Shown here: positions 464-28,733 of the stretch, piece by piece
How the letters are laid out: the number at the start of each line of letters is the position of its first letter
How positions within the stretch are numbered: position 1 is the first letter of the stretch
Assembly: GCA_002633005.1 (NCBI GenBank)
Contig: NMRA01000113.1
Span: 562,747 to 626,746 of the forward strand
Length of the DNA stretch: 64,000 nucleotides
Direction of reading: 5' to 3'
Source: Phoronis australis
Taxonomy: Eukaryota > Animalia > Phoronida
Notes under the pieces: model-generated
The model's database searches: none
What the model was told of the DNA's origin: nothing
What the model saw: the letters and a program-made list of their open reading frames with translations, nothing else
Made by a program: the position numbers and the translations under genes

Positions 464-1685
464 TTTACACTAACAAATGTCAATGGTGTTGACATCACAG
501 AGCGCAGCTGCTCGTGTATTGCAGGAAAGGGATTCTGCCAACATCAAGTTGCACTACTATTTCAGACAAATCATTACCAAAACTTGAAGAAGATCCCAGA
601 AATTGTTACAAAAACAGACGAGCGATGCACCTGGACCATTCCCCCCCACGAACAAAAAGCTTCGCAATTCGTCCTGTCACTGATGTGATTGTCTATAAGC
701 CAGTCTTCCCCTCGTCAACTGGTGAAGCTTCATCAAAACACAAGCGGGTGGAACAGGGCGTAAAGTTAACTTTGTGGAACCCTCTTTCCATGCTGCTCTG
801 CAAGGTGCCAAGCATGATCAACCAGCTGATGCCCACGTATACAAATCAAGATAAGCCGCCCAAATGGGTAATGATTTGGAACGTCAGTGACAATTTACCT
901 TAGTAGACTCCAACTTTGGATCCCTAGTGAAGGGTTCCTTATTATCTTATCAAGAAAAATCAGTCCCAGAAATAGTTTTCTTGGGTCCTAGCACTCTCCC
1001 CGACTTGGACATCCCCTGACTACCCCCCATAGAGATCGACATGGATGGAGCAAGCGGTGTGCAGAAAGTTGTGCTAAAGTCTCTGCAAACGACGTTATTA
1101 GTCACTTCAGTATGAGCATGAGACAAGGAAGCAAAGCGAATGCCCGAGTGGTTTAGACTACGCGAGCTGCGACTAACAGCGTCAAAGTTTAGGACTGTAG
1201 CAGCCTGGCGTAGCAAGTTTGAGGAGTTGGCCACAGACTTGCTTACAAAGAAAGTCTGCAGTACACCAGCCATGCAATATGGTATTGACCACGAGGCTGT
1301 GGCTGCGAAAAAATACTCCGAAACTTTTGGAGTGATATTCACGACGTTGGCTTTGTCATTAACCCATCGGCTTGTCACTAAGGGTGCAGCCCTGATCGGT
1401 GCATATTTGACCCCGATGGACAGCCTCAGTGGGGACTTTTGGAGGTGAAATGCTCTACCAAGGAAACCCTTGCCGAGGTTGCATACTTGAATGACAGCGA
1501 GAATGAGTTGGAGCTGAAGCGTAGTCATACATATTATGATCAGTGCATTGGACAAATGGCTATCACGGGAGCAGAATGGTGCGACTTTCTTATTATGTGT
1601 GGGACACATACTTTTGTGAGAGAATTTTGACGGACAATGACTACTTTCGGGAAATGAAAAGAAAGTTGTCGTTTACATTATGATT
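464..1685 (+). pseudogene. SWIM zinc finger + YqaJ (lambda-exonuclease-like) transposon accessory gene, ISL2EU/Kolobok-type, frameshifted
   Basis: After acceptor ttttcag (461-463): SCSCIAGKGFCQHQVALLF (SWIM). Then across frames: EWFRLRELRLTASKF, AMQYGIDHE, GCSPDR, LLEVKC, HTYYDQCIGQMAITGAEWCDF (YqaJ PD-(D/E)xK motifs). Several frameshifts and stops. Confidence 0.85.
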
Positions 1686-3329
1686 TAAACAGTTTGATGG
1701 TAGCAAAGCAAAATGAGAATTTTTCAAAGAAATACAGTTTTCTGGTGCTTGCTTCCGCTTTAGTTAAATTGAAATATTACAATATTGCAAAAATATAATG
1801 TCCCGACAGTTAACCTGTAATTAATTAATCATTATAGCTTTCATATTTTTCTGTAGATTAATGCTAGATGACCATAGTTTATCTGAGCAACCGCACATGT
1901 AACGGGGATTTTAGACTACAACATGACAAGACAGTTTTTATAATACTGGATTCATGCAGGCATTAGCAAAATGTTTTTAAGTCATAAATTACATAAATTT
2001 CATATGCATAGGCAAATGCATGTCTTCCCTAAGTTGAACTGGCGTTCCCAAAAAGCGCTCATGTTTTCCTCGGAAAGGGCGCTTATGGTTGCTCTTTCGG
2101 GAAAATAATTCAAGCTGCAAAGTGCATTGTCTGAAAGCACCCTGGGCAATCTTTCGGAAATTCACAGTACAGCTGCAGGCAGTACTAGAAGTTACCGTAA
2201 GTTTACTTTTATTTCAACAAAACTGATTGCCAAAATTGACATTTTAAAATTGATCAAATGCTTAGAGCATTGTTAAAAATGCGCAAAGTTTGTGTTCGTT
2301 GACAACAGCTCTACAATGCACAAAATGAAGCAAAAATTTCCTTATTTGACTTACAGTCAACTGCAATGCACCATAAACTGCTAAACGATTGACTGCCTGA
2401 GGATTACGTCAACACTTAATGAGGAAAGTAATATGTGTTTAATGTACAGAAATGGCCAACTCCACAATACAACACAGTGTTTGTAACTTTCAAATACACG
2501 TTACAAAATGTCACCCTGAAAATTGGTCAGTAAGCAACACACACTCCAAATCTGGTTTGTTGACCCGACAAGTTACAAAGGAAACACACCCTTAAATATG
2601 TGGAAGCACTTCACTCTGCCAATAACGCGCTCCACATACACCCTCAAACGTGCAATGGTTAAATAAATTACGCAAGAACTACCTCCAAAGACAAACGAGA
2701 TTAGTAAATAGTGTTTCAAAAATCTTTTTGGTAGTCAGATATTTATGTTCAACAAGCAGCTAGAAGTTACCAAAGTTCCAGAAACACGTACGATTTGACC
2801 ATGAATGTGATCACCCTCTGGAGTCTGAGAGACTGCTTGGCAACACCCGGCAACAGGCAGAGTGAAATGACTGGTTCATTGAGTAATTCACATCGACGGT
2901 AAATCTATCCAAATGTGCTGAAACTGTAACACAAAGTCTTAACAACCTGCCGAATGTTAAAACACGGTTGAAAGGAATTGCAACAGTGAACTGACACATG
3001 ATCAAGGCATGTCGGCAGATATCAGTCGATCAATCTCGGCTGATCAGTACGAATTTCGTTTCGGAAATATGCGACGATAAAATATTTTTTTCAGCACTTC
3101 ATTTACCTTGAAATGTCTTCTAGGATCCCTTCAAATGTTACAACTCTATTAACGACCAAGAACTTCATCCTTAGGGAATTTATGAAACGAAAGTTTACAC
3201 TTATTTGATGAACTGCTGCAATGCGACACAAAAGCAGAACATGCTTGTTAAGGGGCAGAACTAGGTCACATCTGCTCGCCTCATTTTCAATCCGTATTTG
3301 TAAACATGACAAATGCATGAAAGTAGAGA

Positions 3330-5790
3330 ATAGTCACCATTCCATTTGTACATCAATACTTCATGGGATACTTAGTATTGACTTGTATGTTTATTTGTAT
3401 TGTAAATCTTGTGGGTTCAGTTGCCATCCGTTGAAATCATTCTCAATGTATGGCATTTCTTTTTAGCTGGAAAACGTGGTTGCATAACCCTAAGTCGCAT
3501 CCTCAAGTTCGTCTTTACTGTTTGATATTTACGATCTGTGCTTCGCCAACACTTATTTTGGCCTTTTATAGTCAAGAAAGAAGCCATTACAATATTGCAT
3601 AGTTCATCATCATTTGGTTTAACCAAGCCACGTGGACTTTTCCAGCACCGTGTTTGCTTCCTTTATATAACAACTTTGTGTTGCAGCTGATGGAACAGAA
3701 ACCCACCATCAAGTTCCTCCTGATGCCAGGTTCTGATGAGGGACAAATGACATCTCGGATACTGATCGAAATGTTTTGTGCCAATTTATACCCTCTTGGC
3801 TCAGTGAGAAGGGCATCAGAAGAGAAAATCTACAAAAGATTTATCAGATATACTAAAGATGTTGCAGGTAGATGTTGAAACCAATTGTAGACATAAAACA
3901 TGGAGCAGTATAAGAGTATACGCCAGACACACTGCCTGTTACTTAATACTTCAGCAATGTACAGCTACAGGTAAATATGAGAGTATACTGTCACTCTACT
4001 TATACTGTTAAAGTTTCAATTAAAATTCTTCATAAATACTTAATTAATAATTGAGAACTGCTGGCTTGAACTAAAGGAGTGAATATTTGTTTGTATTTCT
4101 AAATAGTCACCATTCCATTTGTGCATGAATACTTCATGGGATACTTAGTATTGTTGTATGCTTATTTGTATTGTAAATCTTGTGGGTTCAGTTGCCATCC
4201 ATTGAAATCATTCTCAATATATGGCATTTCTTTTTAGATGGAAAACGTGGTTGCATAACCCTAAGTAACATCCTCAAGTTCGTCACTGGGCTGGAGCGTC
4301 GTCCCATCCTGGACTTTTCTGTCGAGCCAACAATAGAATTTCCCTGCGCTACACCTTATCAGTGATTCCTACCAACGGCATCAACCTGCAGCAACATACT
4401 AAGACATCCCGTTGAACCATTGCCTTCTCTTAGAGCACCCGTTCAAGATAACCTGTTTGATATTTACGATCTGTGCTTCGCCAACACTCATTTTGGCCTT
4501 TTATAGTCAAGAAAGACGCCATTACAATATTGTATAGTTCATCGTCATTTGGTTTAACAAAGCCACGTGGACTTTTCCAGCACCTTGTTTGCTTCTTTTA
4601 TATAACAACTTTGTGTTACAGCTGATGGAAGAGAAACCCACCATCAAGTTCCTCCTGATGCCAGGTTCTGATGAGGGACAAATGACATCTCGGATAATGA
4701 TCGAAATGTTTCGTGCCAATTTATACCCTCTTGGCTCAGTGAGAAGAGCATCAGAGGAGGAAATCTACAAAAGATTTGTCAGATATACTAAAGATGTTGC
4801 AGGTAAATGTTGGAACCAATTGTAGACATAAAACATGGAGCAGTGTAAGAGTATATGGCAGACACGCTGCCTGTTGCTTAAAACTTCAGCAATATACTGC
4901 TACAGGTAAATATGACAGCATACTGGCACTCTACTTATACTATTAAACTTACAATTAAAATTCTTCATAAATACTTAATTAATAATTGAGAACTGCTGGC
5001 TTAAACTAAAAGAGTGAATATTTGTTTGCATTTCTAAATGGTTACCATTCCATTTGTGCATCAATACTTCATGGGATACTTAGTATTGACTTGTATGTTT
5101 ATTTGTATTGTAAATTTTGTGGGTTCAGTTGCCATCCGTTGAAATCATTCTCAATGTATGTCATTTTTTTAGCTGGAAAACGTGGTTGCATAACCCTAAG
5201 TCACATCCTCAAGTTCGTCTTTACTGTGTTTTACGCTCGGTTAACATTTGGCCAAGTAGGAAAAAGGTTAAAAAACACATGCCTGCTGCGTTCCTAGATA
5301 AGTATCCAAACACACGAGTAATCTTGGACTGTACGGAAATGTGGATTCAAAAGCCGTCAAGCTTGGTTTTAAATTCGGAATTTTATTCACACTACAAAGG
5401 CAGGACCACTCTGAAAGCTTTAGTTGGTGTGGCCCCGTCTGGCGCTGTGACATTTGTATCAAAGCTGTTCACTGGCTCCATCTCCGATAAGGCCATTTGT
5501 CAGGTCTCTGGTATTCTTGATCTTATTGAGCCAGGGGACGAGGTCATGGTAGACAAAGGGTTCGTCACTGGGCTGGAACGTCGCCCCATCCTGGACTTTT
5601 CTACCTAGCCAACAATAGAATTTCCCTGTGCTACACCTTATCAGTGATTCCTACCAACAGCATCAACTTGCAGCAACATACTAAGACTTCCCGTTGAACC
5701 ACTGCCTCCTCTTAGAGCCCCCGTTCCAGATAACCTGTTTGATATTTACGATCTGTGATTCGCCAACACTTATTTTGGCCTTTTATAATC
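3330..5790 (+). pseudogene. Tandemly duplicated (~935 bp unit, ~2.6 copies) C-terminal exons of a G2E3-like HECT E3 ligase
   Basis: Exon A (~3687-3868, ~4622-4802): LYPLGSVRRASEEEIY. Exon B (3467-, 4238-, 5173-): ILKFVTG...FLPTASTCSNILRLP...DLCFANTYFGLL*, containing the HECT catalytic Cys. AG/GT splice sites present; in-frame TGA present. Confidence 0.75.
5220..5563 (+). mobile_element. ISL2EU/Harbinger-type DDE transposase internal fragment (DDE_Tnp_4-like)
   Basis: WPSRKKVKKHMP...RVILDCTEMWIQKPSS...YSHYKGRTTLKALVGVAPSGAVTFVS...GSISD...GDEVMVDKGF. Inserted in the third HECT exon B copy. Confidence 0.9.
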
Positions 5791-5888
5791 TAGAAATGAA
5801 AGCAAATTGCCCATCTGCATAACCTGACTACGTCTGCACAAATATTTAATCAGCTGATGCATTGTGGTAACACACTGAGTAACCCAAA

Positions 5889-7420
5889 ATGGCGATTCAG
5901 ATAAGAGAGGTTGGAGATACTGTGTTGACTAATCTAAGCAGAGTGTTTACTTACTGACAGAAGATGTCCCAGGTGCTAAAGTAACGAAGCGGTTTGCAGC
6001 GTGTTCTGTCCCCGAGTTGAGGAGATGGCTAAAATATCGCGGCGCAACACTGAAAGGAAAGCATTCTGACCTTGTGCTAGTTTTCATTTGTAACGTTAAG
6101 AACACCGGTCGGTGGTCGACACCGGCTATTGCCTTTAAGATTTATTCAATATTATCGACCTGCGTCATTTATGGCGACCACCTGTAACATTTTAGAATCA
6201 CATGTGATTTTGTGCAGCTGATTTCACGCGTTTGTTGGATCAGAAAGAAGTGTTTTTAATACCAGTTTTGGACCAACATGGTCGGTGACATTTTTAAGTG
6301 GCCGCATGTCTGAGTGTCCAAAGCAAAATCAAGGGAAACATTAGTGCACAAGGAAGAAGCCTCTGTAAACGGATGCTCAAACTAATTTTTGTTCTGACTG
6401 CACAGTCTCAATTAAAAATGACTATTTTATTTAATACAGAAGACAGTGGACAAACTTTTGGTTGGGGATTTCTGATTCCCACTTAAATGTTACTGCATGT
6501 GCCTGTGCTATTATTTAGTTTAGTGTGTCTGGTCTGGGCTATGATTTAAACCTTGAAAATATAATTATTTCTGGCGGTGTTAATGTTTACAGATGTGACG
6601 TCATTGATTAAGTCAATTCAAAATTAATATATAACACGTCATTTGCAGGTGTGAGCTGTATGCCAGTGACGCAGAAAGAAGCAGTGAAATCATTGATCCC
6701 GACGGTGGTCAGTGGAAAACCATCAAACAAATAGGCCACACAGCAGTCTCCAAGACCACTTCACCATTTGTGGTGTCTGAAAGTCAGTGGGCATCGTCAA
6801 CCCAACCAATTCCAGAACCCTTTGAAAGTGGTACTATTTACCAACATGTTGGGAGGCAGGCCGGAATAACATCGTAGAGATGGTTTTCCTTTATTCAAAT
6901 GTGACAAGGTAGTCAGGATGAAAATAAATCCATGTACTGGCCATAATCACATAGCAGTAGAATGTTTTGTTGAGGCCAGTTTCTCAATTTCTGTCCAACA
7001 CCGCATGAACATTGTACTTAACAAAGTCACAGGAAGTCTTGTTTGGCCATTGCAAATGCAAGGGTAGTGCAGGGGGGAGATGTAAGCATGTGACTGCAGG
7101 ACTGTACAAAATTCTCGATCTAAAGGACAGTGACTCCCCCAATGTGCCTGAAGAACTTGCCTGCACCCAGAAGCCTAGGGCATGGGAAACATATGGCACA
7201 AATAAACAGTTCAAGGTATCAGGAAAATTTAGTGACTTGGTATTTGTCAACCACCAGTTAGGAAAGGACTCTAATAGTCATTTGGCAAGAAATGAAGCGC
7301 CGAAACTATAATTCCGTGGGCACAACACAACTTACAAAAAGAAGGTTGGACGATCTGCCTGCTTCATGGCTGGAGAAGAGGCGGACATTCTAGGCACACA
7401 TCATTACTCAACCATCTAAT
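5889..7420 (+). pseudogene. SAP-like + SWIM transposon accessory gene, second paralog, truncated before the nuclease
   Basis: Exon 1: TEDVPGA...ELRRWLKYRGATLKGKHSDLV. Exon 2 from 6649: CELYASDAERSSEIIDPDGG...HCKCKGSAGGRCKHVTAGLY...ACTQKPRAW. Confidence 0.75.
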
Positions 7421-7484
7421 GTAAGTTCAAGTAAGATATGAATCTGAGACAAAACATCCACAGGACATGAAACATTTGATATTA

Positions 7485-7850
7485 GTTTAGTCATGGTGAA
7501 AGCTCGAGTAGCTCCAGTAAAAAAGATGACCTTGCTATATTTGGAATTATTAGGTGCTTTAGTTGGTGCAAGATTGTTGAAATCTGTTCATAATGCCCTA
7601 AAACTAGGAAATGATGTTTCTTATAATTGTTGGAGAGACTCAAATTGTCATAGCATGGATTAAAGGGGATGCTTCTAGATGGAAAGTATTTGTCATTAAC
7701 AGAGTAAATGAAATACAAGATTTAACTGATCCCTCACATTGGAATTGAAAGTTCTGAGAACCAAGCTGACCTACTGACCAGGGGAATTACTGCAGACATT
7801 TTAATTGGGTAAAATTGTGGTTTGTGGTTAGAAGGCCCCCCTGGTTATGT
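7485..7850 (+). mobile_element. BEL/Pao LTR retrotransposon RNase H fragment
   Basis: LVMVKARVAPVKKMT..LELLGALVGARL...RWKVFVINRVNEIQDLTDPSHW...ENQADLLTRG...PPWL, across frameshifts. Confidence 0.9.
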
Positions 7851-8026
7851 AAACAAAGTGAGTATGAAGTGACTCTGCTTTGTGAGACCGATTTGAACTT
7901 TGACAATACCCTTTGTGCAAATCTAAATGCGCTTGCACAAAATCTTAGTTCGGCTAGAGCATCATGGGATCGTTTGAGGTTACAGCGTGACCAAGTCTGC
8001 AGCTGTTGTTCTGTAAATTGCGAGGC

Positions 8027-10591
8027 ATGGAGAAAAACTCACAGAGGGCGATGTTTTTGGTGCAAACATCGATGTGCCGTTCGAGGCAGCAAGTGTGACA
8101 CAGCTGAAGCGCTGGCTAAAATGCTATTGTGCGCAGACTACTGGAAGGAAACCAGTCTAATTGAACGGTAAGTACATTTGACACTGGAGTTGTAAGGCCT
8201 ACACCGCGACGTGGTCACAACGTGGAACCACTCGTAATCGGGGTTATTAAGAGCTTTGAGGACTTCAATATATTTTTTATTTGTCACACTTTAGTGTACC
8301 CCGATGTTCCTTGCGAGATATACACAGCGATTAATTATGCCAAGGCCAGTCAAGGGGTACTATATGTTTGCTTAGTTACAGTGCTGTTCCTATTCTGCCC
8401 AGAGACAAGGCACAGATAGAGAAGGGAGTAACTGAACGTGCAAGTAAGATTGCATGTAATGAACACCCTAATGCTTAATATTAGGTCATTGCTGGAACAT
8501 GAATGGTACAAAAGGTAATTTAGGAGTTCTCATACTTAATTCATTTTGCCTGTGCTCACTCTCTGGTTCATATACCTTCCCATTATCCATTGCCTGGTCC
8601 TCTTATTCTATCAATCTAGGACTATGGCCCCTAAAGCTTTTGACTGCTCGACCAGAATAGAAAATTATCTAGTTTTCTAAATCATGCGGAGTAGGGCCAT
8701 GGTATTGCTGGCTTTGTGAGCGGAGTTCAGGCGTGCGTAACTTTCGCAGGTTTTCCCAGTCAGGGGTATCACCATTGTTGGGCTCAACTGTGGCTGATGC
8801 AGAGCTTGAAATTTTCCTTTTTTAATATATTGGATTTCCTCTACTTTGGTTTTGATTCCCTCCTATTTTATTTCCAGTTTCCCTTTTTGTTATTTTTCCT
8901 ACTGTTATTTTTACTTAATTCATGCATTGAAAAGCCTTTATTTCAGTTATATTTTACAACACAAAAATATTTCTATCACACAAGCATATTTATTTGCTGA
9001 AAGGATACATCGCCTGGGAAATTTTCCTCTTGATATCGTTAACCGTTCCAAGCCCTGTGTAATCCAATTGCCCTCTGGCAACCAAATTTCTGAAATCTGA
9101 TTTGATGAATGGGAAATTCACAACAAGTCTACGATGACCGAAGTGAACTCGTATTATTAACTGCATTTTTGATAACAGCTAACTCGAAAGCTTGTGGGGC
9201 ACTGTGGTCTTGTCTTTGTTTTCAAACGACTTAAATGTCAGGACGTTCTGGTACATTTCCCATTACATTTAATTGAAGCAAGACAGGTTTTATTATTTAC
9301 TGTCACAGTATTGTTCTAGCTGTTACTTTGTCACTGCAACCTACATTTATGTTCTGACTAAACACAGCTTGTAAATCTTCAGACAACCTAATTATCAGGA
9401 CCTAACCGTCGTAACCGGACAGTGCCACAACGGAAATTGGTGTAATTTATTTCTCAGGTTTTGCTTTAGGTAACATTTTATAAAACACATGGTATTTAGG
9501 TCAGTTTGATATTTAGGTACACTATGCGTACTTCAAATGAACTAGTTTACGCTTATTGACTACAGGAACAATGCTATAAGTTTCAAGTTTGCACTCAAAA
9601 TCTCAATTTTGTACTCTAGTAAGTTTGTAGCTTGAATGCAAACATGGAATGGGTAGTAGTCTACTTAGCACAGATTAATAGACACATAATAGAAGGGAAA
9701 TGTCAAAAATAGTTTCGATTTCGAGTACAAAGATTACAGGAGGCCCTTGTCTATTGAAACCCATAAACCTTTGACTTTTTCAGGCACTGTCATGTGAAAT
9801 CTTCTGTAAGATACATGTTAATTTTTGCCTTTCAGTTGTTACACATATGCAAAGGATCCAGAGAGGGCTGCCAATATTATCGATCCTGATGCTGGGACAT
9901 CAGCAATGGCAAAAGCAGCATTAAAAAGAAGCCCTTTGTGCCAACAGGGCACGAAACAAAGTCTTTGTCAAACCTTCCCGTACTGTTTAGTGATGGCAAA
10001 ATTTCTGAGTGGATTGGCCATGAAGCTGAGAAACACAGAACATCTGGCTATACCATGTTTAAGTGTGGACTCGTTTCACAAGTACTTGTAATGCCCAGTG
10101 AGAACTTCTCCTGCAATGCTGTGGTGGGGGCAAGCTTTGGAAAAGACCGTTATTCTGTAACAATATCGCTAAGCAGCAATGGGCACGCGTTGCATGCAAA
10201 ATGCAAGTGCAAAGCCGGTGCATCCGGGAAGTGTAAGCACGTGTCGGCAGTGCTATTCCAGCTCAACGACTGGCGTCTGAGTGATACAAGAGAAATTCCA
10301 GAAATCCTTGCCTGCACTGAGAAACTGAAGGTGTGGGGCGTTCTGAAGAACAACCGAGGGTCAACCGTCCAAAAGTTCTCTGACTTAAACTTTGTAAAGT
10401 TTGCCCCTGGCAAAAGTGAAAGAAACCGAGAACATAGTAAGAGGTGGCGTGATTACATTTGTTTGCCGCCCAATAAGCTGCAGCTTTCAAAGTCCAGACT
10501 CCAAGATCTGTCAGAGTCTTTGAGTGGTGTACGGACTGTCTTCAGCAGCATCATTGCAGAGTTATGTTCACAGGCAGTCTATTATTTTTAA
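8027..10591 (+). pseudogene. SAP-like + SWIM transposon accessory gene, third paralog, two exons
   Basis: Exon 1 (8027-8167): LTEGDVFGA...QLKRWLKC...SLIER|gtaag. Exon 2 from ~9836: CYTYAKDPERAANIIDPD...AKCKCKAGASGKCKHVSAVLFQL...ACTEKLKVWG. Intron position matches the 5889 paralog. Confidence 0.8.
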
Positions 10592-11124
10592 TTTGAGTGC
10601 CTTCACAAGTTGCCCTGGTGTGGTTTACTACTTAAAATTTAGTCACCTATCTTGGGCTTTTGAAGCAAGTAAACAAAACTGCACTCTGCAACCTCAAATT
10701 TTTTGCACAAGTGGCTTTTGTCAAGGCACTCTTCAGCTTTAGTCATACATAGTATAAAGTGCCATCTATGGTGAATAAATTAGCCTTTGACATTAATCAT
10801 TTAAAGATTACTCTTAGTGCAACGGATCATAGCTAGTTAGACAACTTGTTGCTGTATTTTTCTGACTGCTATATGTAACTCGACCAACTCCATAAATTTT
10901 AACAAGAACATGTTTTTTTTTCAGAGTATTAGACCAGACGTGGAACCGGTCGCAAGTGATGTTGCCACTGCATCTATTTCGAGAGTAAATAGTCTTGACG
11001 TCAACGTCTCCAGCTTGAGGTTTTCGCCAATGAGATAAATATAGCATATAGCTCAGTGGTTATCGCCAAAGAGAACAAAGACGCATGCGCATATGCCATA
11101 TATTAGTTGTGTGTTTGGTTGCCA

Positions 11125-11411
11125 GGATTGACGAAACAGAATCGACGAAACTGGATTGAATTCACGAAGCGGGATTGAATTCACAAGATGATAGGATGGA
11201 CAAAACAGAATCGATTAAACAACATTGAATTCAGTAAACAGGATAGACTATACAAAACAGCATGGAGTTCACGATATGGAATCCATGAATATGGAATAAA
11301 TTGATGTAACAGCATTGAATACACAAGATAGGATTGAATTTTCATACAGCTGGCACTGAGTTCATTCAATGGAATTGAATACACATTTTGATGTTTTTTA
11401 GGCTGCCCATA
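11125..11411. mobile_element. Probable DNA-transposon terminus (TATGG..., IS3EU-like) with subterminal ~20-bp repeats
   Basis: Degenerate GATTGAATTCAC repeats at 11125-11385, ending in GGCTGCCCATA (reverse complement TATGGGCAGCC). Confidence 0.4.
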
Positions 11412-11934
11412 CTATTTCCCATCTGCAGTACTAAATTGATCAGTGATTGAAATTTTACAACCGTAAGACAACTCACTTGAACACAGATAATTCTAGGTAT
11501 GGCACATCAGTCATGCTAACAAAAACTGAAAACCTTTGCTATTAATTTTATTTCAGATGATGAACTGTAATACTCCACTGAAAAAGGATATTATGTCGCA
11601 AGCTGTTATACTCTCACGCACACAATACTAAAAAAATGCTGCATTAAAGCAGAGGTAATTGGATTTTATTGCACTCGTTGACATTCAATTCAACAATGAT
11701 TTGCTGGAAACCAGGCCCGTGTTTATATGCAGCTCATGCATTTCATTTTGTTCAAAACTCACGCAGCTGAAGAAATCAGCAAGAATAGAGGTTAGCAATC
11801 TCATTGCTCAGTCTGAAGATCCAACAAAAACATGTAGGGGTAGTTCGGGGAAACTCGGAGAGCGGTAAAATTCGGACAAATCTAAATGAATGTCAAATAA
11901 ATCACAACCTACCCACCCTTTCCAATAAGCTTCC

Positions 11935-14467: not shown

Positions 14468-15489
14468 AGACAAACAACCACAAAGGTCCTTTTGTCCTGA
14501 ACGTTTCCAACTGTTACCAAAGTACATGGATGCAGCCAAGAAAGTAGAAAATTTTGCTCCACCATTGCAGCACGAAACCAAAGTACGGGCACAACTTGCG
14601 GCCCTGAGACTAGGACGACAGCAATGGCAATGACTGCCGTGGCCACTCTGGCTTCACAGACTGTGCCTCCTGGACATCCTGCCTCTCCGAACCAAAGATC
14701 AGCCACGAATTGCTGCCCCCAAGACGATTACCACACCAACTCCAATGGGTGGTGCATTCAGTGTTATGGGAACTGTGGGATCCGAGTCATCAGTGGTCAC
14801 AGTGGACTATGGTCACGTCCCACACCCTCTAAAACGAACCATTTTCGAACCAACTGAGGACATTATTCGCGAACCAAAGCACTGTAAGTATAGGCGCCAA
14901 AATGAATCCTAAAATTTGAAATGATTAAGCATTTAAATTCATTTTTAAGTGAAACAAGTGTAATATTTTTATTCAGAAATGCTTTGGACTTGAAATGGAA
15001 TGGGCTCCTTTGAAGCTGTGATTAACTCACGTTGTGTCGAAATAAATCTTGATTTAGACCCCTTACCAGCAATTACTTTAATTGGATAACTTATGTGAAT
15101 ATGTTAATTAACAAAATAAGAAGTGCCCACAGAGGATGAAGGACTGTGCTGCAAGAAAGTATTCCCAAACTGCATAAGTCTCTTGGACGTACGTATCGAC
15201 AGCATTAGATAGTTTATTTACAAATGCACATCAATTTAATCACATTTGTAAGGGAAGTCACATAGTTATGAACAGATAGCGGCCTGCCTTTACTTGCAGC
15301 TTCTCAAAATTCTTTGTTACAAATTCTCTTGTTGTTTATTAGAGTAATCTGCCTGGTTAGAGCCCCCATCTGATTGAACTTCGCTTTCAAAGCCCATCAT
15401 AAAATATTGTAGAGGTAAGGGCCAACCTCCAACTTTTGGGGTTCTTCCAATTTGAGGGCACTGGGCATTGACAGGGAAATTACGGTATT

Positions 15490-15990
15490 TGAATTATGGA
15501 AGTATTCACAACCTGCACACCAGAAAATTCTCAGCGTTACATTTTCATACAGAGACGCCTCTGTGACAGGTTGAAAGAACATTACACCTCAGAGAAAAGT
15601 AACATATACAGGCATTGTATTAGCTACAATCACCAAGCCAACTCTGTTAGAATTATCTGCAGAGAGCCTAATAAGGAGTTACTGTATATTAAAGAGTCAT
15701 TGGCCATTCAGAACCAGCATGCCACTGATTCTCTGAGTAACATGCAAAGCTCTGTGACCCTGCAGCTATGGTGATGACCAGCTACTGACCATATTCTATG
15801 TATCTCTCACTTCACTTTATGGATGTTACCTGAGCTGTATGTTGGCACTTGTTGTCCTAAATTATAGTAAGTATGATCCTGATGATGTCTAATGAAAAGA
15901 CGAAACGTTGAATTGAACATGTACTTTTTTATTTGTGCGACGATCGTCCGGTTTTTGAACATTTTCATATGCATTTATCTTCTATTATTT
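15490..15990 (+). mobile_element. Penelope-like GIY-YIG C-terminus and pLTR (copy 2 at ~20180-20680)
   Basis: RRLCDRLKEH...SNIYRHC...IICREPNKELLYIKESLAI...SSVTLQLW, followed by a hammerhead core. Confidence 0.8.
15871..15915 (+). ncRNA. Minimal type I hammerhead ribozyme motif in Penelope pLTR (copy 2 at ~20565-20609)
   Basis: CTGATGA-T-GTCT(aatgaaa)AGAC-GAAAC-GTT, with palindromic AACGTT as stem III. Stem I is weak. Confidence 0.6.
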
Positions 15991-15995
15991 TTAGG

Positions 15996-16250
15996 ACATG
16001 GAGTACCTAGTGCTCAATGAGGCTGTGTTAGCTTTAGCGCTTACTACAGAAACATGTTGGCCTTCCAAGATGGCGAGAGCTATAACAAGACAAACAGGCA
16101 CCAAGCATATTGACAGTATACATTGTGGGGTTTTGGCAGGATTAGTACAGAACAAAGAGAAGTTGTCGCTAGTTGCTGTGTCTGGCGCATCAGGGACAAG
16201 TTTCCTGATCTGTTTGCTCTGTACAAAGGTTTTGTATCACACCGCGATCA
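15996..16250 (+). mobile_element. KolobokP accessory protein fragment (P2X7 ballast-like His-Me nuclease); copy 2 at ~20687-20940
   Basis: LVLNEAVL...RHQAY*QYTLWGFGRISTEQREVVASCCVWRIRDKFPDLFALYKGF matches the RxxAYRQ...PSC..IR..FP....Y.GF pattern. Confidence 0.8.
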
Positions 16251-16417
16251 TTTCATAATATGAACGTCATTTTCTGAATACACGCCCATGGGCATATTTA
16301 CGGAAATTCCCGTAGTTTACCTATCTGTTAGGATTAGTATAGGCCAAGTATCACCAGTGTTTTCTGTAGGCATGGGGATTGTGGTGAATGAATATGAATG
16401 TTTCACAGGAAGTTCAG

Positions 16418-17100
16418 GAGTACAGCTGAAGTGGTGAACTTCAATCAGTTAGTGCTTATGTATGTTGGAAAGAGGTTTGCTTATGGGCCACCGGCATACA
16501 GAGCCAGAAAACTTTTGGCACCTCTAGACTATAATGCCCATATTGACAGGGATGTCTTGCTCAACAAGAATGGAACCATCAGGTAATAAAAAGGTTACAT
16601 TTGTATCACTTTTATGTTTACTGTAGTCGAAAATGTAATTTGCTCAGTCACATTGTGTTCCCCTTAGTGCAATTTGATGCTGTGGGATGATTAAGTAAAA
16701 ATTATTATTTTAAAATGGGACACTGAGATTGGCTGTTCTGCTTAGTCTAACAAGATTGTTGACAAGTTTTTATGTTATGTTTGATTAAAATATGAACTAG
16801 ACAAGTCTTTTTTGTATTCTTTGAAGATATGCTAGCAAGTTTAATAAGAAATCCGGGCGTTACACTGTTCACCCGGTAAAGGTGGCAAAGACCTATCCTA
16901 ACATCAGGCCATTGATGGTGGCGATAGTCAAAAGGCGATTAAAAGACAACTTGGGGAGGTATAGAAGAGTATTTATTCCATTTAATGACCCGTGGACCAT
17001 CACTCCTTCTGTCAGTGGTGTCACACCATCACCTACTTATGTCTTACAAGACGAGAAAGTCTCAAGATTCCAGTTGTGGGCTTGTCTGCATATGAAATAG
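16418..17100 (+). mobile_element. Kolobok(P) DDE transposase C-terminal fragment, two exons; copy 2 at ~21155-21627
   Basis: TAEVVNFNQLVLMYVGKRFAYGPPAYRARKLLAPLDYNAH...|YASKFNKKSGRYTVHPVKVAKTYP. The expected catalytic E position reads V. Confidence 0.75.
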
Positions 17101-17269
17101 AGCCCCACGTGTAACAACAAGAGCACCGCGAAGCAGTGAAATGCGCCCACGAATGCATTGCAAATGGTAAGCTTTTAGGGTTATTTATTTGTATCATAAA
17201 AATGACCACTAGATGGCGCAAAAAGTACAATCCATCCAAAAATGGGAACATGCCATATTTCATAAAAAT

Positions 17270-18385
17270 GTGTCAAGGAACGTCAGAGAAACAAAGGAAA
17301 ACAGAATAAAATGAAATTGTCACTATTGGGAAGGAAAAAGATGCTTTAAGAAAGCGAATGAAGCGACTGGACCATAAATGTAGGGCAGCAGAGAATGCAC
17401 GCCAAGTTGAAATTAGCAAAACCAGAGACACAATCACTCAAGCTGAAAACAGACTGACACTTTACAGAAAAGACTTCAGTGAAAGGACCAAAGGAGATGG
17501 AAGGAAACGTGAAATGCAATCAAATCCTGTTTATAGAGCGAATGAAAATATGCGTTGGACTTTAAGCAAATGAAAGTTGAGACCAGATGTTGCTCATCAA
17601 GCAAAAGAGAATGAACAAAGAGGTGACACTAGAAAAAAAACGTTCAAACCCTGTGTCTAGAGCTAAAGAAAATGTGCGGGGCACTTTAAGCAAAAGGAAG
17701 TTGCGCTCACATGATGTTCAGAAAGCAAAGGAAAATGAACAAAGAAATGAGATGAGAAAACAAAAGCAATTAAGTTGTGATTACAGAAATTGGGAAAACA
17801 AAAGAGAAGCAACAAGAAAATCATTGAAGCGTGCATGTGACAGGGAACAAGTGTTTGAAGATGATGAACTTGTAAAAAGATTTCATGAAATGATTAAAAA
17901 TGGTCCTAAGTATGTGTGTAGTTGTTATGATCAAACTTGGTTTAGACATAGTGTAAGTAAGACAGTGAAAGGGAATAATAAGACTGCAATTGAGTGTTTG
18001 CCACTGGAGCAAACTGATGAGGAATACGTGTGTAATACATTTCATAGCTACTTAGTGCAAGATAAGATACCACCATGTGCAATGTTGAATGATATGAGAT
18101 TTCACTAGAAACCAGAAGATATATGTGAGCTGTACCCATTAGAGTGGAGACTTCTGTCACCTCGGATTCATTTTATGAAGATGTATGCTGCTCCAAGGGG
18201 TAATCAGAAGAAAATCAGAGGAAATGTAGTAACTGTACCAGCAAATGTTTGTAATACTATTAATGTACTTCCAAGAGCTCCTGATGATACTATGACAATT
18301 GCAGCTAATATGAAAAGACAACTGACATACAAGCATGTTGAAACGACTGAAAATATACCCCATAATAAGATTGTTGAAATGGCAG
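17270..18385 (+). mobile_element. Helitron/Helentron RepHel N-terminal fragment (basic repeats + DUF6570-like); copy 2 at ~21800-22950
   Basis: FHEMIKNGPKYVCSCYDQTWF...IPPCAMLN...LEWRLLSPRI.FMK...Q.KIRGNVVTVP...LPR...MKRQLTYK. Confidence 0.85.
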
Positions 18386-18389
18386 GAAA

Positions 18390-19395
18390 AGAATGGGGGA
18401 ATTGTATACATGAGAAGGCATTGTGTTTAATGTACACAGGAGTGATGAAAACAATGAAACACACCCCAGCAAGTTCCAAAACTGGCCTCAGCTATTTAAG
18501 CAGGGACAACTTAGAGGAATGGTGAACAAACATAAAACACAATGAAAAAATGGAAAAACGAAACTACAAGTGGCTGACAGACCGAATAAATAAAGCAATA
18601 ACAGAGGAGAGCATGGAGATATCGGAGGAGGTTCACCAATGTCTCAAAACGATACTCTCTGAAAATGAGGCACAGCTAACAGACAAAATTGAGAAAGACT
18701 CTGTGCAAATGCTGTTGTGGAAGGAACAGAAAAAAATGTTGATCTGCAAAACAGCAAGAACATGAAATGGCATCCTATGATGCTAAAGTGGTGCCTACAG
18801 TTAAAAAGCTCTCAAAGGTAGCATATGATTTAATAAAAAATTCAGGCTTTCTATTTTTGCTATCCACAACAACATTGTTCAATTATGTGCACCACATGTC
18901 ATTGGACACTGGAGTGAAAGATGTGAAATTTTTGTCCTAGCAATTAAAGAGCATTAACTTTGACTCTTTGCCGGAGCACACACGAAATGTTGTGCTGATT
19001 TTTGATGAAATGAAAATAAAGGCAGACCTAGTGTATTCAAAGGCCACGGGAAAAGTGATTGGTCAGTGCAACACAGGCTTAGTTAATGAACAGTTGACTG
19101 CGTTTGCTGCTAATATTGAGAGCGGTGAGGTCTTGCCTCAGCTTGCTACAAGCGTGTTGCTATGCATGGCACAGGGTATAATAGACTGATTCGTACTGTT
19201 TTTGCGTTGCCCACTATCCATGAATTGGTTTTAACTCAGACCAAGTTTATCCTGATGTGTGGGAATGTGTGCGTGCTGTGGAAACCAATGGTTTAAAGGT
19301 TAGAGCTACAGTTTGTGATGGAGCTACAACAAACCGGCATTTTTATCATATACACAAGCTACCAACAGATGCACAGAATGCTGTTGTTTATAGAA
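18390..19395 (+). mobile_element. P-element/THAP9-like transposase fragment; copy 2 at ~22955-23965
   Basis: MKWHPMMLKWCL...AYDLIKNSGFL...VVLIFDEMKIKADLVY...LATSVL...AHYP...LKVRATVSDGATTNRHF. Confidence 0.85.
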
Positions 19396-19397
19396 CA

Positions 19398-19778
19398 TTC
19401 GTAATATATGAGTATTAGATACATTTGGTAATGAAAGGATAAAGCAAAATTATAAACCGAGCAAAGTAATTTATGGAAATGCAGACTTGATGAGTAAAGA
19501 ATCGGTGTGTATTCCAGCTCACTTTGCCGATCACTGAGCTTTAGTAATTGTTTTCGTTGATTCAAAAATGGTTAAGTTCTACGACTCTCTACTGAATGAA
19601 GGTCAAGCTATGATTTGTTTGCAAAAGATAAAGCAGTTTATTCATGCGATTCAACATCAGCAAGATGAGGAATGGAGCATATGTATTGAAAGAAGAGCAA
19701 CACAACATAGTAATTCATCAGACTGAGGTGTCTATGTTTGCATATATGTAGATCTGGTTCTAAGAGGAAATGGATAGT
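19398..19778 (+). pseudogene. Ulp1/SENP (C48) protease fragment; copy 2 truncated at 23966-24055
   Basis: CIPAHFADH*ALVIV...KFYDSL...TQHSNSSD*GVYVC. The HW, YDS and Q..N..DCG motifs are present, with W and C mutated to TGA. Confidence 0.8.
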
Positions 19779-22700
19779 TGTGTGAAAATGTTAATTAACA
19801 AATAAGAAGTGCCCACAGAGGATGAAAGACTGTGCTGCAAGAAAGCATTCCCAAACTGCATAAGTATCTTGGACGTACGTATGGACAGCATTAGATAGTA
19901 TATTTACACATGCACAACAATTTAATCACATTTGTAAGGGAAGTCACATAGTTATGAACAACAAAGAGATAGCGGCCTGCCTTTACTTGCAGTTTCTCAA
20001 AATTCTTTGTTACAAATTCTCTTGTTGTTTATTAGAGTAATCTGCCTGGTTAGAGCCCCCATCTGATTGAACTTCGCTTTCAAAGCCCATTATAAAATAT
20101 TGTTGAGGTAAGGGCACACCTCCAATTTTTGGGAACCTTCCAATTTGAGGGCCCTGGACACTGACAGGGAGATTACGGTATTTGAATTATGGAAATATTC
20201 ACAACCTGCACACCAGAAAATTCTCAGTGTTACATGTTCATACAGAGACGACTCTGTGACAGGTAGAAAGAACATCACACCTCAGAGAACAGTAACATAC
20301 ATAGGCATTGTATTAGCTACAATCACCAAGCCAACTCTTGTTAGTATTATCTGCAGAGAACCTAATAAGGAGTTACTGTATATTAAAGAGTCATTGGCCA
20401 TTTAGAACCATCATGCCACTGATTCTCTGAATAACATGCAAAGCTCTGTGACCCTGCAGCTATGGTGATGACCAGCTACTGACCATATTCTATGTATCTC
20501 TCACTTCACTTTATGGATGTTACCTGAGCTGTATGTTGGCACTTGTTGTCCTAAATTATTGTAAGTATGATCCTGATGATGTCTAATGAAAAGACGAAAC
20601 GTTGAATTGAACATGAACTTTTTTATTTGTGCGGGGATCGTCCTGTCTTTGAACATTTTCATATGCATTTAACTTTATTATTTTTAGGACATGGAGTACC
20701 TAGTGCTCAATGAGGCTGTGTTAGCTTTAGCGCTGCACTACAGAAACGTGTTGGCCTTCCACGATAGCGAGAACTATAACAAGACAAACAGGCACCAAGC
20801 ATATTGACAGTATACATTGTGGGGTTTTGGTAGGCTCAGTACAGAACAAAGAAAAGTTGTCCCTAGTTGCTGTGTCTGGCGCATCAGGGTCAAGTTTCCT
20901 GATCTGTTTGCTCTGTACAAAGGTTTTGTATCACACCGCGACCATTTCATGTTATGAATGTCATTTTCTGAATACAAGCCCATGGGCATGTTTTCGGAAA
21001 TTCCCGTAGTTTACCGATCTGTTAGGATTAGTATAGGCCAAGTATCACCAGACACCGAGTGTTTTCTGTAGGCATGGGGATTGTGGTGAATGAATATGAA
21101 TGTTTCACAGGAAGTTCAATAATGCCCTAATTTTTTTCATCTTATTTCTTTCAGGAGTACAGCTGAAGTGGTGAACTTCAATCTGCTAGTATTTATGTAT
21201 GTTGGAAAGAGGTTTGCCCATGGGCCACGGGCATACAGAGCCAGAAACCTTTTGGCAGCTCTAGACAACAATGCCCATATTGACAGGGATGTCTTGGCTC
21301 AACAAGAATGGAACCATCAGGTAATAAAAAGGTTACATTTGTATTCTTTGAAGGTATGCTAGCAAGTTTAATAAGAAATCCGGGTGTTACACTGTTCACC
21401 AGGTAAAGGTGGCAAAGACCTATCCTAACATCAGGCCATTGACGGTGGCGATAGTCAAAAGGCAATTACAAGACAACTTGGGGATGCATAGAAGAGTACC
21501 TATTTCATTTGATGACCCGTGGACCATCGCTCCTTCTGTCAGTGGTGTCACACCATCACCTACAGATGTTATACAAGACGAGAAAGTCTCAAGATTCCAG
21601 TTGTGGGCTTGTCTGCAAATGAAATAGAGCCCCACGTGTAACAACAAGAGCACCGCGGAGCAGTGAAATGCGCCCACGAATGCATTGCAAATGGTATGCT
21701 TTTAAGGTTATTTATTTGCATCATAAAAATGGCCACTAGATGGCACAAAAAAGTACAATGCATCCAAAAATGAGAACACGCCATATTTCATAAAAATGTG
21801 TCAAGGAACTTCAGAGAAACAAAGGAAAACAGAATAAAATGAAATTGTCACTAGTGGGAAGGAAAAAGATGCTTTAAAAAAGCGACTGAAGCGACTGGAC
21901 CATAAATGTAGAGCAGCAGAGAATGCACGCCGAGTTGAAAACAGGCTTAGTGACACTTTACAGAAAAGACTTCAGTGAAAGGATGAAGGCTAATCAGCAA
22001 ATGAAATTAAATGTAAAAGCAAACGAAAGTTGAGATCAGATGTTACTCATCAAGCAAAAAAGAATGAACAAAGCGATGAGACCAGAAAAAGAAAAAACTC
22101 AGATCCTGTTTATAGAGTTAAGGAAAATATGCCAAGCACTTTTAGCAAACAAAAGGTGAGATCAGATGATGTTCAGAAAATGAAAGAGAATGAGTGAAGA
22201 TGTGAAATGCGAACAGATCCTGATTACAGACCTAATGAAAATGTGCGGAGCAAATGGAAGTTGCGCTCTGATGATGTTCAGAAAGCAAAAGAAAATGAAC
22301 AAAGAAATGAGATGAGAAAACAAAAGCGATTAAGTTGTGATTACAGAAATTGGGAAAACAAAAGAGAAGCAACAAGAAAATCATTGAAGCGTGCATGTGA
22401 CAGGGAACAAGTGTTTGAAGACGATGAACTTGTAAAAAGATTTCATGAAATGATTAAAAATGGTCCTACGTATGTGTGTAGTTGTTATGATCAAACTTGG
22501 TTTAGACATAGTGTAAGGCGAAGACAGTGAAAGGGAATAATAAGACTGCAATTGAGAGTTTGCCACTGGAGCAAACTGATGAGGAATACGTGAGTGATAC
22601 ATTTCATAGCTACTTAGTGCAAGATAAGATACCACCATGTGCAATGTTGAATGATATGAGATTTCACAAGAAACCAGAAGATATATGTGATCTGTACCCA

Positions 22701-25700
22701 TTAGAGTGGATACTTCTGTCACCTCGGATTCCTTTTATGAAGATGTATGCTGCTCCAAGGGGTAATCAGAAGAAAATCAGAGGAAATGTAGTAAACGTTC
22801 CAGGAAATGTTTGTAATACTATTAAAAATGTACTTCCAAGAGCTCCTGATGATACTATGACAATTGCAGCTAATATGAAAAGACAACTGACATACAAGCA
22901 TGTTGAAATGACTGAAAATATACCCCATAATAAGATTGTTGAAATGGCTGGAAAAGAATATGGGAATTGTATACATGAGAAGGCATTGTGTTTAATGTAC
23001 ACAGGAGTGATGAAAACAATGAAACACACCTCAGCAAGTTCCAAAACTGGCCTCAGCTATTTAAGCAAGGACAACTTAGAGAAATGGTGAACAAACATAA
23101 AACACAATGAAAAAATGGAAAAACGAAACTACAAGTGGCTGACAGACCGAATAAATAAAGCAATAACAGAGGAGAGCATGGAGATATCGGAGGAGGTTCA
23201 CCAATGTCTCAAAACGATACTCTCTGAAAATGAGGCACAGCTAACAGACAAAATTGAGAAAGACTCTGTGCAAATGCTGTTGTGGAAGGAACAGAAAAAA
23301 ATGTTGATCTGCAAAACAGCAAGAACATGAAATAGCATCCTATGATGCTAAAGTGGTGCCTACAGTTAAAAAATCTCTCAAAGGTAGCATATGACTTAAT
23401 AAAAAATTCAGGCTTTCTATTTTTGCTATCCACAACAACATTGTTCAATTATGTGCTCCACATGTCATTGGACACTGGAGTGAAAGATGCGAAATTTTTG
23501 TCCTAGCAATTAAAGAGCATTAACTTTGACTTTTTGCCTGAGCACACACGAAATGTTGTGCTGATCTTTGATGAAATGAAAATAAAGGCAGACCTAGTGT
23601 ATTCAAAGGCCACAGGAAAAGTGATTGGTCAGTGCAACACAGGCTTAATTAATGAACAGTTGACTGCGTTTGCTGCTAACATTGAGAGCGGTGAGGTCTT
23701 GCCTCAGCTTGCTACAAGCGTGTTGCTATTCATGGCACAGGGTACAATAGACTGATTCGTACTGTTTTTCCATGGCCCACTATCCATGTGTTGGTTTTAA
23801 CTCAGACCAACTTTATCCTGTTGTGTGGGAATGTGTGCGTGGTGTGGAAACCATTAGTTTAAAGGTTAGAGCTACAGTTTCTGATGGAGCTACAACAAAC
23901 CGGCATTTTTATCACATGCACAAGTTACCAACAGATGCACAGAATGCTGTTGTTTATAGAACTGTCGTAATATATGAGTATTAGATACATTTGGTAACGA
24001 GAGGATAAAGCAAAATTATGAACCGGGCAAAGTATTTTATGAAAATGCAGACTTGCATCACCCGTTTGAAGTGTCTGGTTTGTTGGGACTGACACAATGT
24101 CTCATGCATTGCCCCCTTCCCTGTACCTATCCTCCAAACTGTGTGTTGAATTGTGATAAAGGGTGATTAGTGGGTTCCTATTGTGGAGAGCATTGTTGAC
24201 TTGCTTTTCAGTCTTGGAGACTGTTTTAAGTTTACAAGCATTGTTCCTTTTATTGGGAATTTTTAAAATAATGATCATACCTTATGTCCTTGCTCTATGC
24301 GATGCACACGGCGTTGCTCTTGTTTTATTAACCGGCATATCATACTGACCAACAAATTCACTTCAGGCACAATGTCCCACCAATCAACAACACCATTTTG
24401 ACATAATGCCTTAAAAAGTTTTTTTGTCATTTTTTGTACAACCATTGTCACTGTCATATTAAATGTTGAGTAAAAATAATAAAAAAATATTGTTAAAAGC
24501 CTCATTTCATTACCTTGCAGAAAATAAATACTTTGTAGTACTTTATACCACGTTCTGATGATTCTATTAAATGATTTAGTGACATCACCCTCGTCTATTG
24601 GAATTTGACATAATTAATTTGGACACTAAAGGGTTAAGCAGGCTCTGGTATAAAAATACCCTATTGTTAAGTATTAGAGTAGATAAGCCAGTGGAGCGTG
24701 AGACCCGTGAGCCCCAGTCAACTCCTCACAATAATTCCTTGTTATGAATGCAATATACCCACACAAGGCATAGGATCAAGCCCCAATCAGAGTCTCACAT
24801 CTCACTAAGGAGACCATTGCTCCATGGTGAACACGCTGCCTATCAACCAGAGACTGTTGACAGTGTCACGAATAATTAGCCCGTGGTAAACAGCGTAACA
24901 AGGTTTATATGATCGTTCATAAGCCAAAATGGTACAAGAATGACGATTCTGTACAATTAGCTTCAGTGCATGAAACACTGATAATCCATATAAATAACAT
25001 TGGTGTTGTAGGTCCATACCCCATATTATTGACTGTGCTAATACATGATGGCTGACAAGTTAGGAGAACTATGCCGTTTTAAAAGAGTAAATATTCATTC
25101 ACGAAGACCCATCACCATGGTGAGGAGTTCACCGTAACATTCATCAAGATATCATAGATGACATTTCGATCAAGCGCGATGTTACATCTGATTCAGACAA
25201 AAAAGAGGCGATTGAGGGAGTTCAAAGAAACATCACAAAGTCTCCATCTTCATCTACAAAGGAAGGCAAAGATAGAAAGAAATGACCCAAGGCCAAGATT
25301 TTCATCGTTCGGGAAAAGACTCTTACCTATTTTACCTATTCTATATTTTTTCACTTCACTTCTACCAATATTTCATGACATTAAGACATACTTTCAACAA
25401 TTATAATCAAAATCCACGAATTACACAATAAACAGAAAGACATAATGACAGATTATTTAGGGTGTTATTACATCAGAAATACTGGTTGGTGCCAAATCAG
25501 CTTAAATTGATTTGAATAATGTAGTAAGTCATAAGACGAGCTCAGCTTGTTTTTATGATGAAGTTGTAAAGAAATGTCTTGCAGCAAGAAGAAAAGAAAA
25601 GTATTTGAAGAAAGAGTTTCAAGAATTACCAAGAAAGGCTTTTGTAGCCTGGAGAACCACTCTTCAAAGGAATATGCTGCTCAACACCTGAATTGTTTCA

Positions 25701-28700: not shown

Positions 28701-28733
28701 GAAGTGACTGAACAAACCCAGAATCTTCTAGTT

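What the first reader, a model, noticed from the sequence alone, without database searches (positions are those of the whole stretch)
464..24055. Same-strand library of transposon fragments: candidate unistrand piRNA cluster
Seen: about 13 independent-looking coding fragments from at least 10 unrelated TE groups (YqaJ/SWIM x3, HECT, ISL2EU, BEL, piggyBac, Gypsy gag, Penelope x2, Copia, KolobokP, Helitron, P, Ulp1) all read on +. They are short, dead, often abut directly and mostly lack their own termini. For 13 random orientations the two-sided chance is 2 x 0.5^13, about 2e-4. Known: unistrand piRNA clusters such as Drosophila flamenco accumulate TE fragments antisense to their transcript. 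Inference: a minus-strand transcript, from a promoter near 24-28 kb or read-through from CCNDBP1 (which points into the region), would yield antisense guides against both DNA transposons and retroelements. The host-gene introns hold only MITEs and SINEs.
Basis: partly seen in the sequence, partly recalled or inferred. Interest (0 to 1): 0.85.

Follow-up and report, generated by a model that had tools for sequence, protein, structure and literature searches.

The report
Antisense transposon archive behind CCNDBP1
Just behind the host gene CCNDBP1 lies a 24-kb patchwork of broken jumping-gene pieces that nearly all point one way and are copied at low level into RNA of the opposite strand, so it is likely a read-through source of transposon-silencing small RNAs (piRNAs), which were not themselves tested.

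Summary
Largely real. In 1-19.8 kb, 8 of 8 single-gene transposon pieces confirmed by tools read on + (14 of 14 with motif-only calls). One exception was missed: a minus-strand THAP-DDE remnant (2492-3247), partner of the + YqaJ gene in one ISL2EU element. 19.8-24.1 kb is a 93.5% tandem copy. 'KolobokP' is Kol0/KolX. New evidence: three stranded RNA-seq runs show low minus-strand RNA over the block (23 of 26 informative bins; 18 of 18 after dropping 8 repeat-affected bins), at about the depth of the CCNDBP1 body and the gap between. No AATAAA follows CCNDBP1 for 4.4 kb. One fragment has a sense-expressed ~97% relative elsewhere. A 332-bp internal transposase piece sits between 7-bp direct repeats, as after repair capture. 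Best reading (0.55): a read-through unistrand piRNA source like Aedes core clusters and mammalian piC-DoGs, here mostly DNA transposons. Small RNAs were not available, and no read links gene to block. The scan has noted such one-way arrays before on other DNA (23 notes, at least 4 genomes).

The parts
443..1700 (+). SWIM-YqaJ exonuclease gene remnant (ISL2EU second gene)
   Evidence: Pfam SWIM, YqaJ; tblastn; collinear with related locus L002
2492..3247 (-). THAP-DDE transposase remnant, core missing; convergent partner of the YqaJ gene; the one minus-strand coding piece found
   Evidence: Pfam DDE_Tnp_4 E 4e-4, THAP E 0.006; tblastx to 18 of 21 related loci
3329..5796 (+). Tandemly repeated HECT-like C-terminal piece with intron (label from recalled motif)
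   Evidence: self-BLAST 93-96%; no Pfam or PDB hit
5220..5559 (+). Internal piece of an ISL2EU-type DDE transposase (about 330 bp), inserted between 7-bp direct repeats; empty site in the neighbouring HECT unit
   Evidence: Pfam DDE_Tnp_4 E 8e-23; junctions and empty site
5963..7430 (+). 5' half of a second SAP-SWIM(-YqaJ) gene
   Evidence: tblastn E 5e-34; weak SAP
7448..7800 (+). BEL/Pao polyprotein piece
   Evidence: Pfam Peptidase_A17 E 8e-10
8032..10612 (+). 5' part of a third SAP-SWIM(-YqaJ) gene with intron, perhaps reaching 11.8 kb; a ~97% relative elsewhere is read as sense RNA
   Evidence: phmmer 483 hits; relatives carry YqaJ in 13 of 13 tested; variant-bearing plus-strand reads
12077..12500 (+). 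piggyBac transposase piece
   Evidence: Pfam DDE_Tnp_1_7 E 4e-21
13772..14870 (+). Abutting gag-like, Penelope GIY-YIG-like and second gag-like pieces (labels from recalled motifs)
   Evidence: translation; no library hit
15400..15780 (+). Second Penelope GIY-YIG-like piece (recalled motif)
   Evidence: translation; no library or homologue hit
15985..17325 (+). Kolobok Kol0 pieces: KolX tail, then transposase tail
   Evidence: Pfam P2RX7_C E 1e-9; KolX = Kol0 (PMC9587614); transposase tail by recalled motif
17326..18420 (+). DUF6570 piece (Helitron-associated; association recalled)
   Evidence: Pfam E 3e-8
18450..19390 (+). P-element-like transposase piece
   Evidence: Pfam TNP-like_RNaseH_N E 9e-9
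19390..19767 (+). Ulp1-like protease tail (recalled motif)
   Evidence: translation; no Pfam or PDB hit
19768..24055 (+). Tandem copy of 15080-19489, 93.5% identical, with its own deletions
   Evidence: two RNA reads cross the junction
24056..28730 (-). CCNDBP1 3' UTR and gap, with low minus-strand RNA; no minus-strand AATAAA above 24329
28735..37770 (-). CCNDBP1 (GCIP) gene, likely promoter donor
   Evidence: Pfam GCIP_N/C; five CT..AC joints, 23 reads
1..28730 (-). Inferred read-through precursor; left end beyond the window
   Evidence: stranded depth; continuity inferred

Best explanation
The block is a mosaic of dead transposon pieces lying antisense to low-level minus-strand RNA, and it is likely a unistrand piRNA source fed by read-through from CCNDBP1. 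Shown: co-orientation, minus-strand RNA over gene, gap and block, and no canonical poly(A) signal for 4.4 kb behind the gene. Inferred: polymerase from the CCNDBP1 promoter (about 37.8 kb) passes the weak 3' end and runs through at least 28 kb more. Inferred: the transcript is cut into antisense piRNAs against DNA transposons and retroelements, including a sense-expressed ~97% relative of the 9.6-10.4 kb piece. Inferred: pieces arrive by insertion and by repair-type capture, are trimmed by microhomology deletions and tandem duplication, and selection keeps the antisense ones.
For: Strand key: 23 of 23 reads on five CCNDBP1 CT..AC joints have the first mate on +, and PDCD5 exon 1 shows the reverse. 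1-19750: minus RNA exceeds plus in 23 of 26 informative pooled bins; mean depth 0.35/0.33/0.26. After dropping 8 of 30 bins with reads from other copies: 18 of 18 informative bins, about 74 against 6 read-equivalents. Gap 24348-28331: 0.35/0.40/0.005; CCNDBP1 body without 3 of 14 repeat bins: 0.51/0.30/0.15. 127 of 332 laid reads lie wholly on 1-19750, 71 are 99% or more alike, and 2 cross the duplication junction. First minus AATAAA behind CCNDBP1 is at 24324 (chance about 0.045), while PDCD5 and the CLPTM1-family gene have one within about 350 nt of their last exons. ISL2EU's two genes lie on opposite strands in 10 of 10 informative relatives (of 21 loci), yet pieces of both genes read + here, so the bias follows the coding strand. 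In mouse, read-through without piRNAs shows no antisense bias, and productive piC-DoGs do (PMC11615739, passages).
Against: No small-RNA data. Depth is very low, about one read pair per bin per run; 33 of 90 bin-run cells are empty, and 660-1977, 5932-6590, 17794-18452 and 22356-23019 are empty in all three runs. Run X3 has almost no signal in the gap. No read or contig links CCNDBP1 to the block. 205 of 332 laid reads fit only in part, and loose ends show some minus reads come from other loci (2637-2658, 17325, 21858). The two lays used different thresholds (95, 97). Tissue and library selection are unknown. Minus-strand AATAAA is not depleted inside the block (26 against 14 on + in 1-19767). 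Six of 14 units rest on recalled motifs. No genome was held, so copy number, background strand bias and the left end are unknown.
Confidence: 0.55

Rival explanations
1. A passive transposon graveyard inside a read-through tail, long non-coding RNA or large intron on the minus strand. Sense insertions were purged because they disturb that transcript; no piRNAs are made.
For: Explains the same strand pattern and the intron-like depth. No small RNA was seen. Deletions with 4- and 7-bp microhomology and tandem duplication can make abutting pieces without any function.
Against: The minus strand is full of AATAAA (26 in 19.8 kb), so poly(A) signals were not purged. Host introns in the window hold no coding debris (0 transposon hits in frames over the three genes). 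Mouse non-piRNA read-through shows no antisense bias (PMC11615739).
Confidence: 0.25
2. A unistrand piRNA source with its own promoter at 24-28 kb (flamenco-like), or with much of the signal coming from sister loci.
For: Run X3 has block signal (0.26) but almost none in the gap (0.005). Some minus reads run on into other sequence.
Against: X1 and X2 show minus RNA in 5 of 6 and 4 of 6 gap bins, and no pile-up of molecule ends was listed in the gap.
Confidence: 0.1
3. A chance run of co-oriented debris picked out after the fact, beside a gene with ordinary leaky termination.
For: Tool-confirmed counts alone give p 0.008-0.02, and the scan covers some 250,000 windows.
Against: The RNA strand was predicted beforehand and held. 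The debris is dense here and nearly absent in the other 40 kb (1 of 278 frames).
Confidence: 0.06
4. Cargo of one Helitron or giant element that captured fragments in its own sense.
For: A DUF6570 piece and an Ulp1-like piece are present.
Against: RNA is antisense, not sense. No hairpin-CTRR end on either strand in 1-28700, though the same scan finds one at 58611. No long inverted arms. Helitron-like pieces are themselves broken and duplicated.
Confidence: 0.04

Closest known systems
Aedes/Culex/Anopheles core piRNA clusters made by read-through (Qu et al., bioRxiv 10.1101/2022.08.22.504762; abstract and 12 passages read)
   Same: Unistrand; lies within about 5 kb behind an expressed gene of the same strand; no own promoter; foreign pieces antisense.
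   Different: Cargo there is largely non-retroviral virus pieces; here transposon pieces, no viral piece found. piRNAs shown there, not here.
Mammalian piC-DoG clusters such as Zim2, D10Wsu102e, TMEM181 (PMC11615739; 12 passages read)
   Same: Host promoter, transcript past the poly(A) site, densely packed antisense transposon fragments over tens of kb.
   Different: There LINE-1 and ERV in germ cells; here DNA transposons of at least four groups dominate, with introns kept, in an invertebrate of unknown tissue.
Drosophila flamenco and flam-like clusters (PMC10643416; 12 passages read)
   Same: One-strand layout with antisense fragments.
   Different: Hundreds of kb, bias driven by Gypsy, own promoter. 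Not met here.
Mollusc piRNA clusters (PMC6128900; 4 passages read)
   Same: Enriched for DNA transposons such as Kolobok, besides Gypsy and BEL.
   Different: The passages seen do not describe read-through or one-strand layout.
ISL2EU elements (PMC4482050, PMC9179366; passages read)
   Same: THAP-DDE transposase plus YqaJ gene at 443-3247.
   Different: Decayed; termini not found; three further pieces hold one gene only.

Membership tests
Read-through unistrand piRNA cluster (Aedes core / piC-DoG) | Lies directly behind an expressed gene of the same strand | tested here: met
   CCNDBP1 spliced and minus; stop about 4.7 kb from the block, 3' end nearer
Read-through unistrand piRNA cluster (Aedes core / piC-DoG) | Foreign pieces antisense to the transcript | tested here: met
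   8 of 8 confirmed single-gene units; one two-gene element has a sense remnant
Read-through unistrand piRNA cluster (Aedes core / piC-DoG) | One-strand long RNA over the locus | tested here: met
   23 of 26 bins; 18 of 18 after exclusions; low depth
Read-through unistrand piRNA cluster (Aedes core / piC-DoG) | Transcript continuous with the upstream gene | tested here: inconclusive
   similar depth in gene, gap and block in two of three runs; no linking read
Read-through unistrand piRNA cluster (Aedes core / piC-DoG) | Makes 1U-biased, phased, PIWI-bound small RNAs | not testable with these tools
   no small-RNA run was listed among 4 runs; short RNAs get lost in that index
flamenco / flam-like cluster | Gypsy-dominated antisense content | tested here: not met
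   at most two short gag-like pieces; confirmed units are mostly DNA transposons
flamenco / flam-like cluster | Own promoter | tested here: inconclusive
   no molecule-end pile-up in the gap, but depth too low
Helitron with captured cargo | 3' hairpin plus CTRR end | tested here: not met
   0 in 1-28700 on either strand under a strict pattern; one found at 58611
Helitron with captured cargo | Whole unit is multi-copy | not testable with these tools
   no genome held
ISL2EU (443-3247) | THAP-DDE gene plus YqaJ gene | tested here: met
ISL2EU (443-3247) | GG-starting inverted termini and AT target duplication | tested here: inconclusive
   no convincing arms among the 25 longest of 398 pairs; left end may lie outside the window
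   second protein is P2RX7_C/KolX, which marks Kol0

The most novel reading that the evidence does not exclude
The locus actively acquires internal coding pieces of transposons by break-repair capture and fixes them antisense to its read-through RNA: an animal 'spacer archive' in which polarity follows the captured gene's coding strand, not the element's ends. The ~330-bp transposase piece between 7-bp repeats, and both genes of a two-strand family ending up on +, would be its footprints.
Probability: 0.1. Interest if true: 0.85.

Novelty: new member of a known kind. Interest (0 to 1): 0.47.

Why it matters
Read-through piRNA clusters are described in mosquitoes and mammals. A case in a marine invertebrate (clade label from an earlier scan note, not tested), aimed mostly at DNA transposons, would suggest the mechanism is general in animals. 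Searches listed no paper on such a locus outside insects and mammals, but the library lacks most subscription journals. Unlike most similar scan notes, this one has stranded RNA support, a named promoter donor and an expressed candidate target, so one small-RNA library would settle it. The repair-type insertion bears on how clusters gain new specificities.

Tried and rejected
No RNA holder listed by index and no small-RNA run listed; this is no evidence either way. Three word-indexed protein searches found nothing, so the organism was not placed. PDB searches for HECT and Ulp1 pieces were blank. NCBIfam gave only a sub-cutoff chance hit. The two Penelope-like pieces do not align with each other. 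Four of five viral-contig scans were blank, and the fifth gave one weak 26-aa match, L022, treated as chance. The first metagenome scan was blank. The Atlas gave no answer. Rfam: 0 hits. Self-tblastx was swamped by summed E-values and not used. The bacterial promoter scan is irrelevant to an animal. Poly(A)-signal avoidance inside the block was tested and not found. KolX-transposase orientation in intact Kol0 elements could not be found (four supplements of PMC9587614 listed, not read, and they may bear on it). Helitron capture orientation: PMC4224331 passages were uninformative. A false haplotype duplication is unlikely, as two reads cross the junction. DNA contamination is unlikely, as the signal is one-stranded.
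Full report
Setting. The window is animal DNA with three host genes: CCNDBP1 (minus, about 28.7-37.8 kb), PDCD5 (plus, from 38.2 kb) and a CLPTM1-family gene (minus). No genome was held. The species is coded as organism A. An earlier scan note calls it a marine invertebrate (not tested).

Observation. I scanned every stop-free frame of 30 aa or more in 1-19.8 kb: 11 of 198 plus frames and 2 of 205 minus frames hit transposon families. A search with the 9890-10588 frame gave 483 relatives; 13 of 13 long ones tested carry YqaJ. They map to three + genes in the window. ISL2EU elements encode exactly this pair, THAP-DDE plus YqaJ (PMC4482050, PMC9179366; passages). In 21 related loci, 10 hold a SWIM-YqaJ match and in 10 of 10 it is on the strand opposite the transposase; L002 is collinear with 452-2719. 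So 443-3247 is one two-strand element whose sense-facing gene has lost its core. HECT, two gag, two Penelope, Ulp1 and the Kolobok transposase tail rest on motifs that I recall; libraries did not confirm them. Counts: 8 of 8 confirmed single-gene units on + (p 0.008), 14 of 14 with motif calls (p 1e-4), 16 of 17 coding pieces. Post-hoc selection weakens these. 19768-24055 is a 93.5% copy of 15080-19489. The rest of the window gave 1 transposon hit in 278 frames.

How the pieces are joined. Several DNA-transposon pieces keep GT..AG introns, so they are DNA copies. The two clean internal deletions that separate the duplicate copies have 4 and 7 bp of microhomology (random expectation about 2% and 0.1%); six other gaps of 4 bp or more have 0-2. 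The transposase piece at about 5220-5559 is purely internal and is flanked by the same 7 bp on both sides; the neighbouring HECT unit shows the empty site with no loss of flank, and about 4 of the 7 letters on the right match the donor's DKGF codons. That fits repair-type capture rather than transposition followed by trimming. It is one example.

RNA. Three paired raw-read runs (about 18% of each read) and one contig set were laid in two calls, at 95% (19700-39600) and 97% (1-19750). The libraries are stranded: 23 of 23 reads on five CCNDBP1 CT..AC joints have the first mate on +, and PDCD5 exon 1 shows the opposite. Over 1-19750, minus RNA exceeds plus in 23 of 26 informative pooled bins (30 in all), mean depth 0.35/0.33/0.26. 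I then dropped 8 bins where loose ends or shared variants show reads from other copies (1978-3295, 8568-10544, 15158-16475, 17135-17793). That left 18 of 18 informative bins of 22, depth 0.28/0.34/0.16 against 0.004/0.04/0.02. The gap has 0.35/0.40/0.005 and the CCNDBP1 body, without 3 repeat bins, 0.51/0.30/0.15. In 19700-24347, 5 of 6 informative bins favour minus but cross-mapping is heavy. Bins are treated as independent and mates count twice, so the cleaned set is about 37 pairs. Two reads cross the duplication junction. Plus RNA is concentrated at a short repeat (8962-8996) and at 9.6-10.4 kb, where reads share 7 variants over 255 bp, five of them seen in all three runs or in X1 and X3; I read these as a sense-expressed copy about 97% alike, though an allele is not excluded. 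Against: four stretches are empty in all runs, X3 lacks the gap, nothing links gene and block in one molecule.

3' end. The first minus-strand AATAAA behind the CCNDBP1 stop (about 28,735; frame chosen by recalled likeness) is at 24324; weaker variants lie at 28260, 28112 and 27896. At the local rate the chance is about 0.045. Inside the block AATAAA is not depleted on minus (26 against 14), so a precursor would have to ignore many sites.

Comparison. Mosquito core clusters have no promoter of their own, start close behind an expressed gene and hold antisense virus pieces (10.1101/2022.08.22.504762; abstract and passages). Mammalian piC-DoGs hold dense antisense transposon fragments; read-through without piRNAs shows no such bias (PMC11615739; passages). 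Flam-like clusters are far larger and Gypsy-driven (PMC10643416; passages). Mollusc clusters are rich in DNA transposons (PMC6128900; passages). PMC13172572 (passages) supplied the mosquito reference. The locus works like a read-through unistrand cluster in layout and long-RNA strand; membership needs small RNAs. The scan holds 23 notes on similar arrays in at least 4 other genomes, two behind named host genes and one where stranded RNA showed no transcript; these are unchecked notes and not support.

Verdict. Observation largely confirmed with one minus exception. Likely a read-through piRNA source (0.55); passive graveyard under read-through is the main rival (0.25). New member of a known kind; interest 0.47.

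Noticed in passing
window 60.5-62.4 kb (+): Decayed P-element-like transposase with introns and small inserted repeats (Pfam E 8e-5); an ordinary whole-element remnant, in contrast to the block.
   Followed up: partly
window 58571-58611 (-): GC hairpin followed by CTAG-T, as at a Helitron 3' end; probably a non-autonomous copy.
   Followed up: no
window 37770-38200: CCNDBP1 and PDCD5 start head to head about 430 bp apart, a likely bidirectional promoter.
   Followed up: partly
window 16264-16313 and 20746/21297: An imperfect palindrome lies between the KolX and transposase pieces, and 4 reads of one run join the two pieces on opposite strands. In other copies the two genes may face each other, with one piece inverted here. 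Weak.
   Followed up: partly
window 24345-24392: 85% match, same strand, to the tail of the Penelope-like piece at 14338-14385; the array may reach 24.4 kb.
   Followed up: no
window 25.1-27.0 kb (+): A-rich, coding-looking frames without any family hit; perhaps older debris in the gap.
   Followed up: partly
window 17200-17325 and 21780-21858: Abundant one-strand reads from other copies of this repeat that run on into a different end; antisense to the Kolobok piece.
   Followed up: partly
L009, L011, L018: ISL2EU-type transposase match lies between the SWIM and YqaJ parts of the opposite-strand gene, as if nested in its intron.
   Followed up: no
window 48760-49004, 52190-52653, 56817-57317, 59853-60267: Intronic or intergenic tandem repeats.
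   Followed up: no
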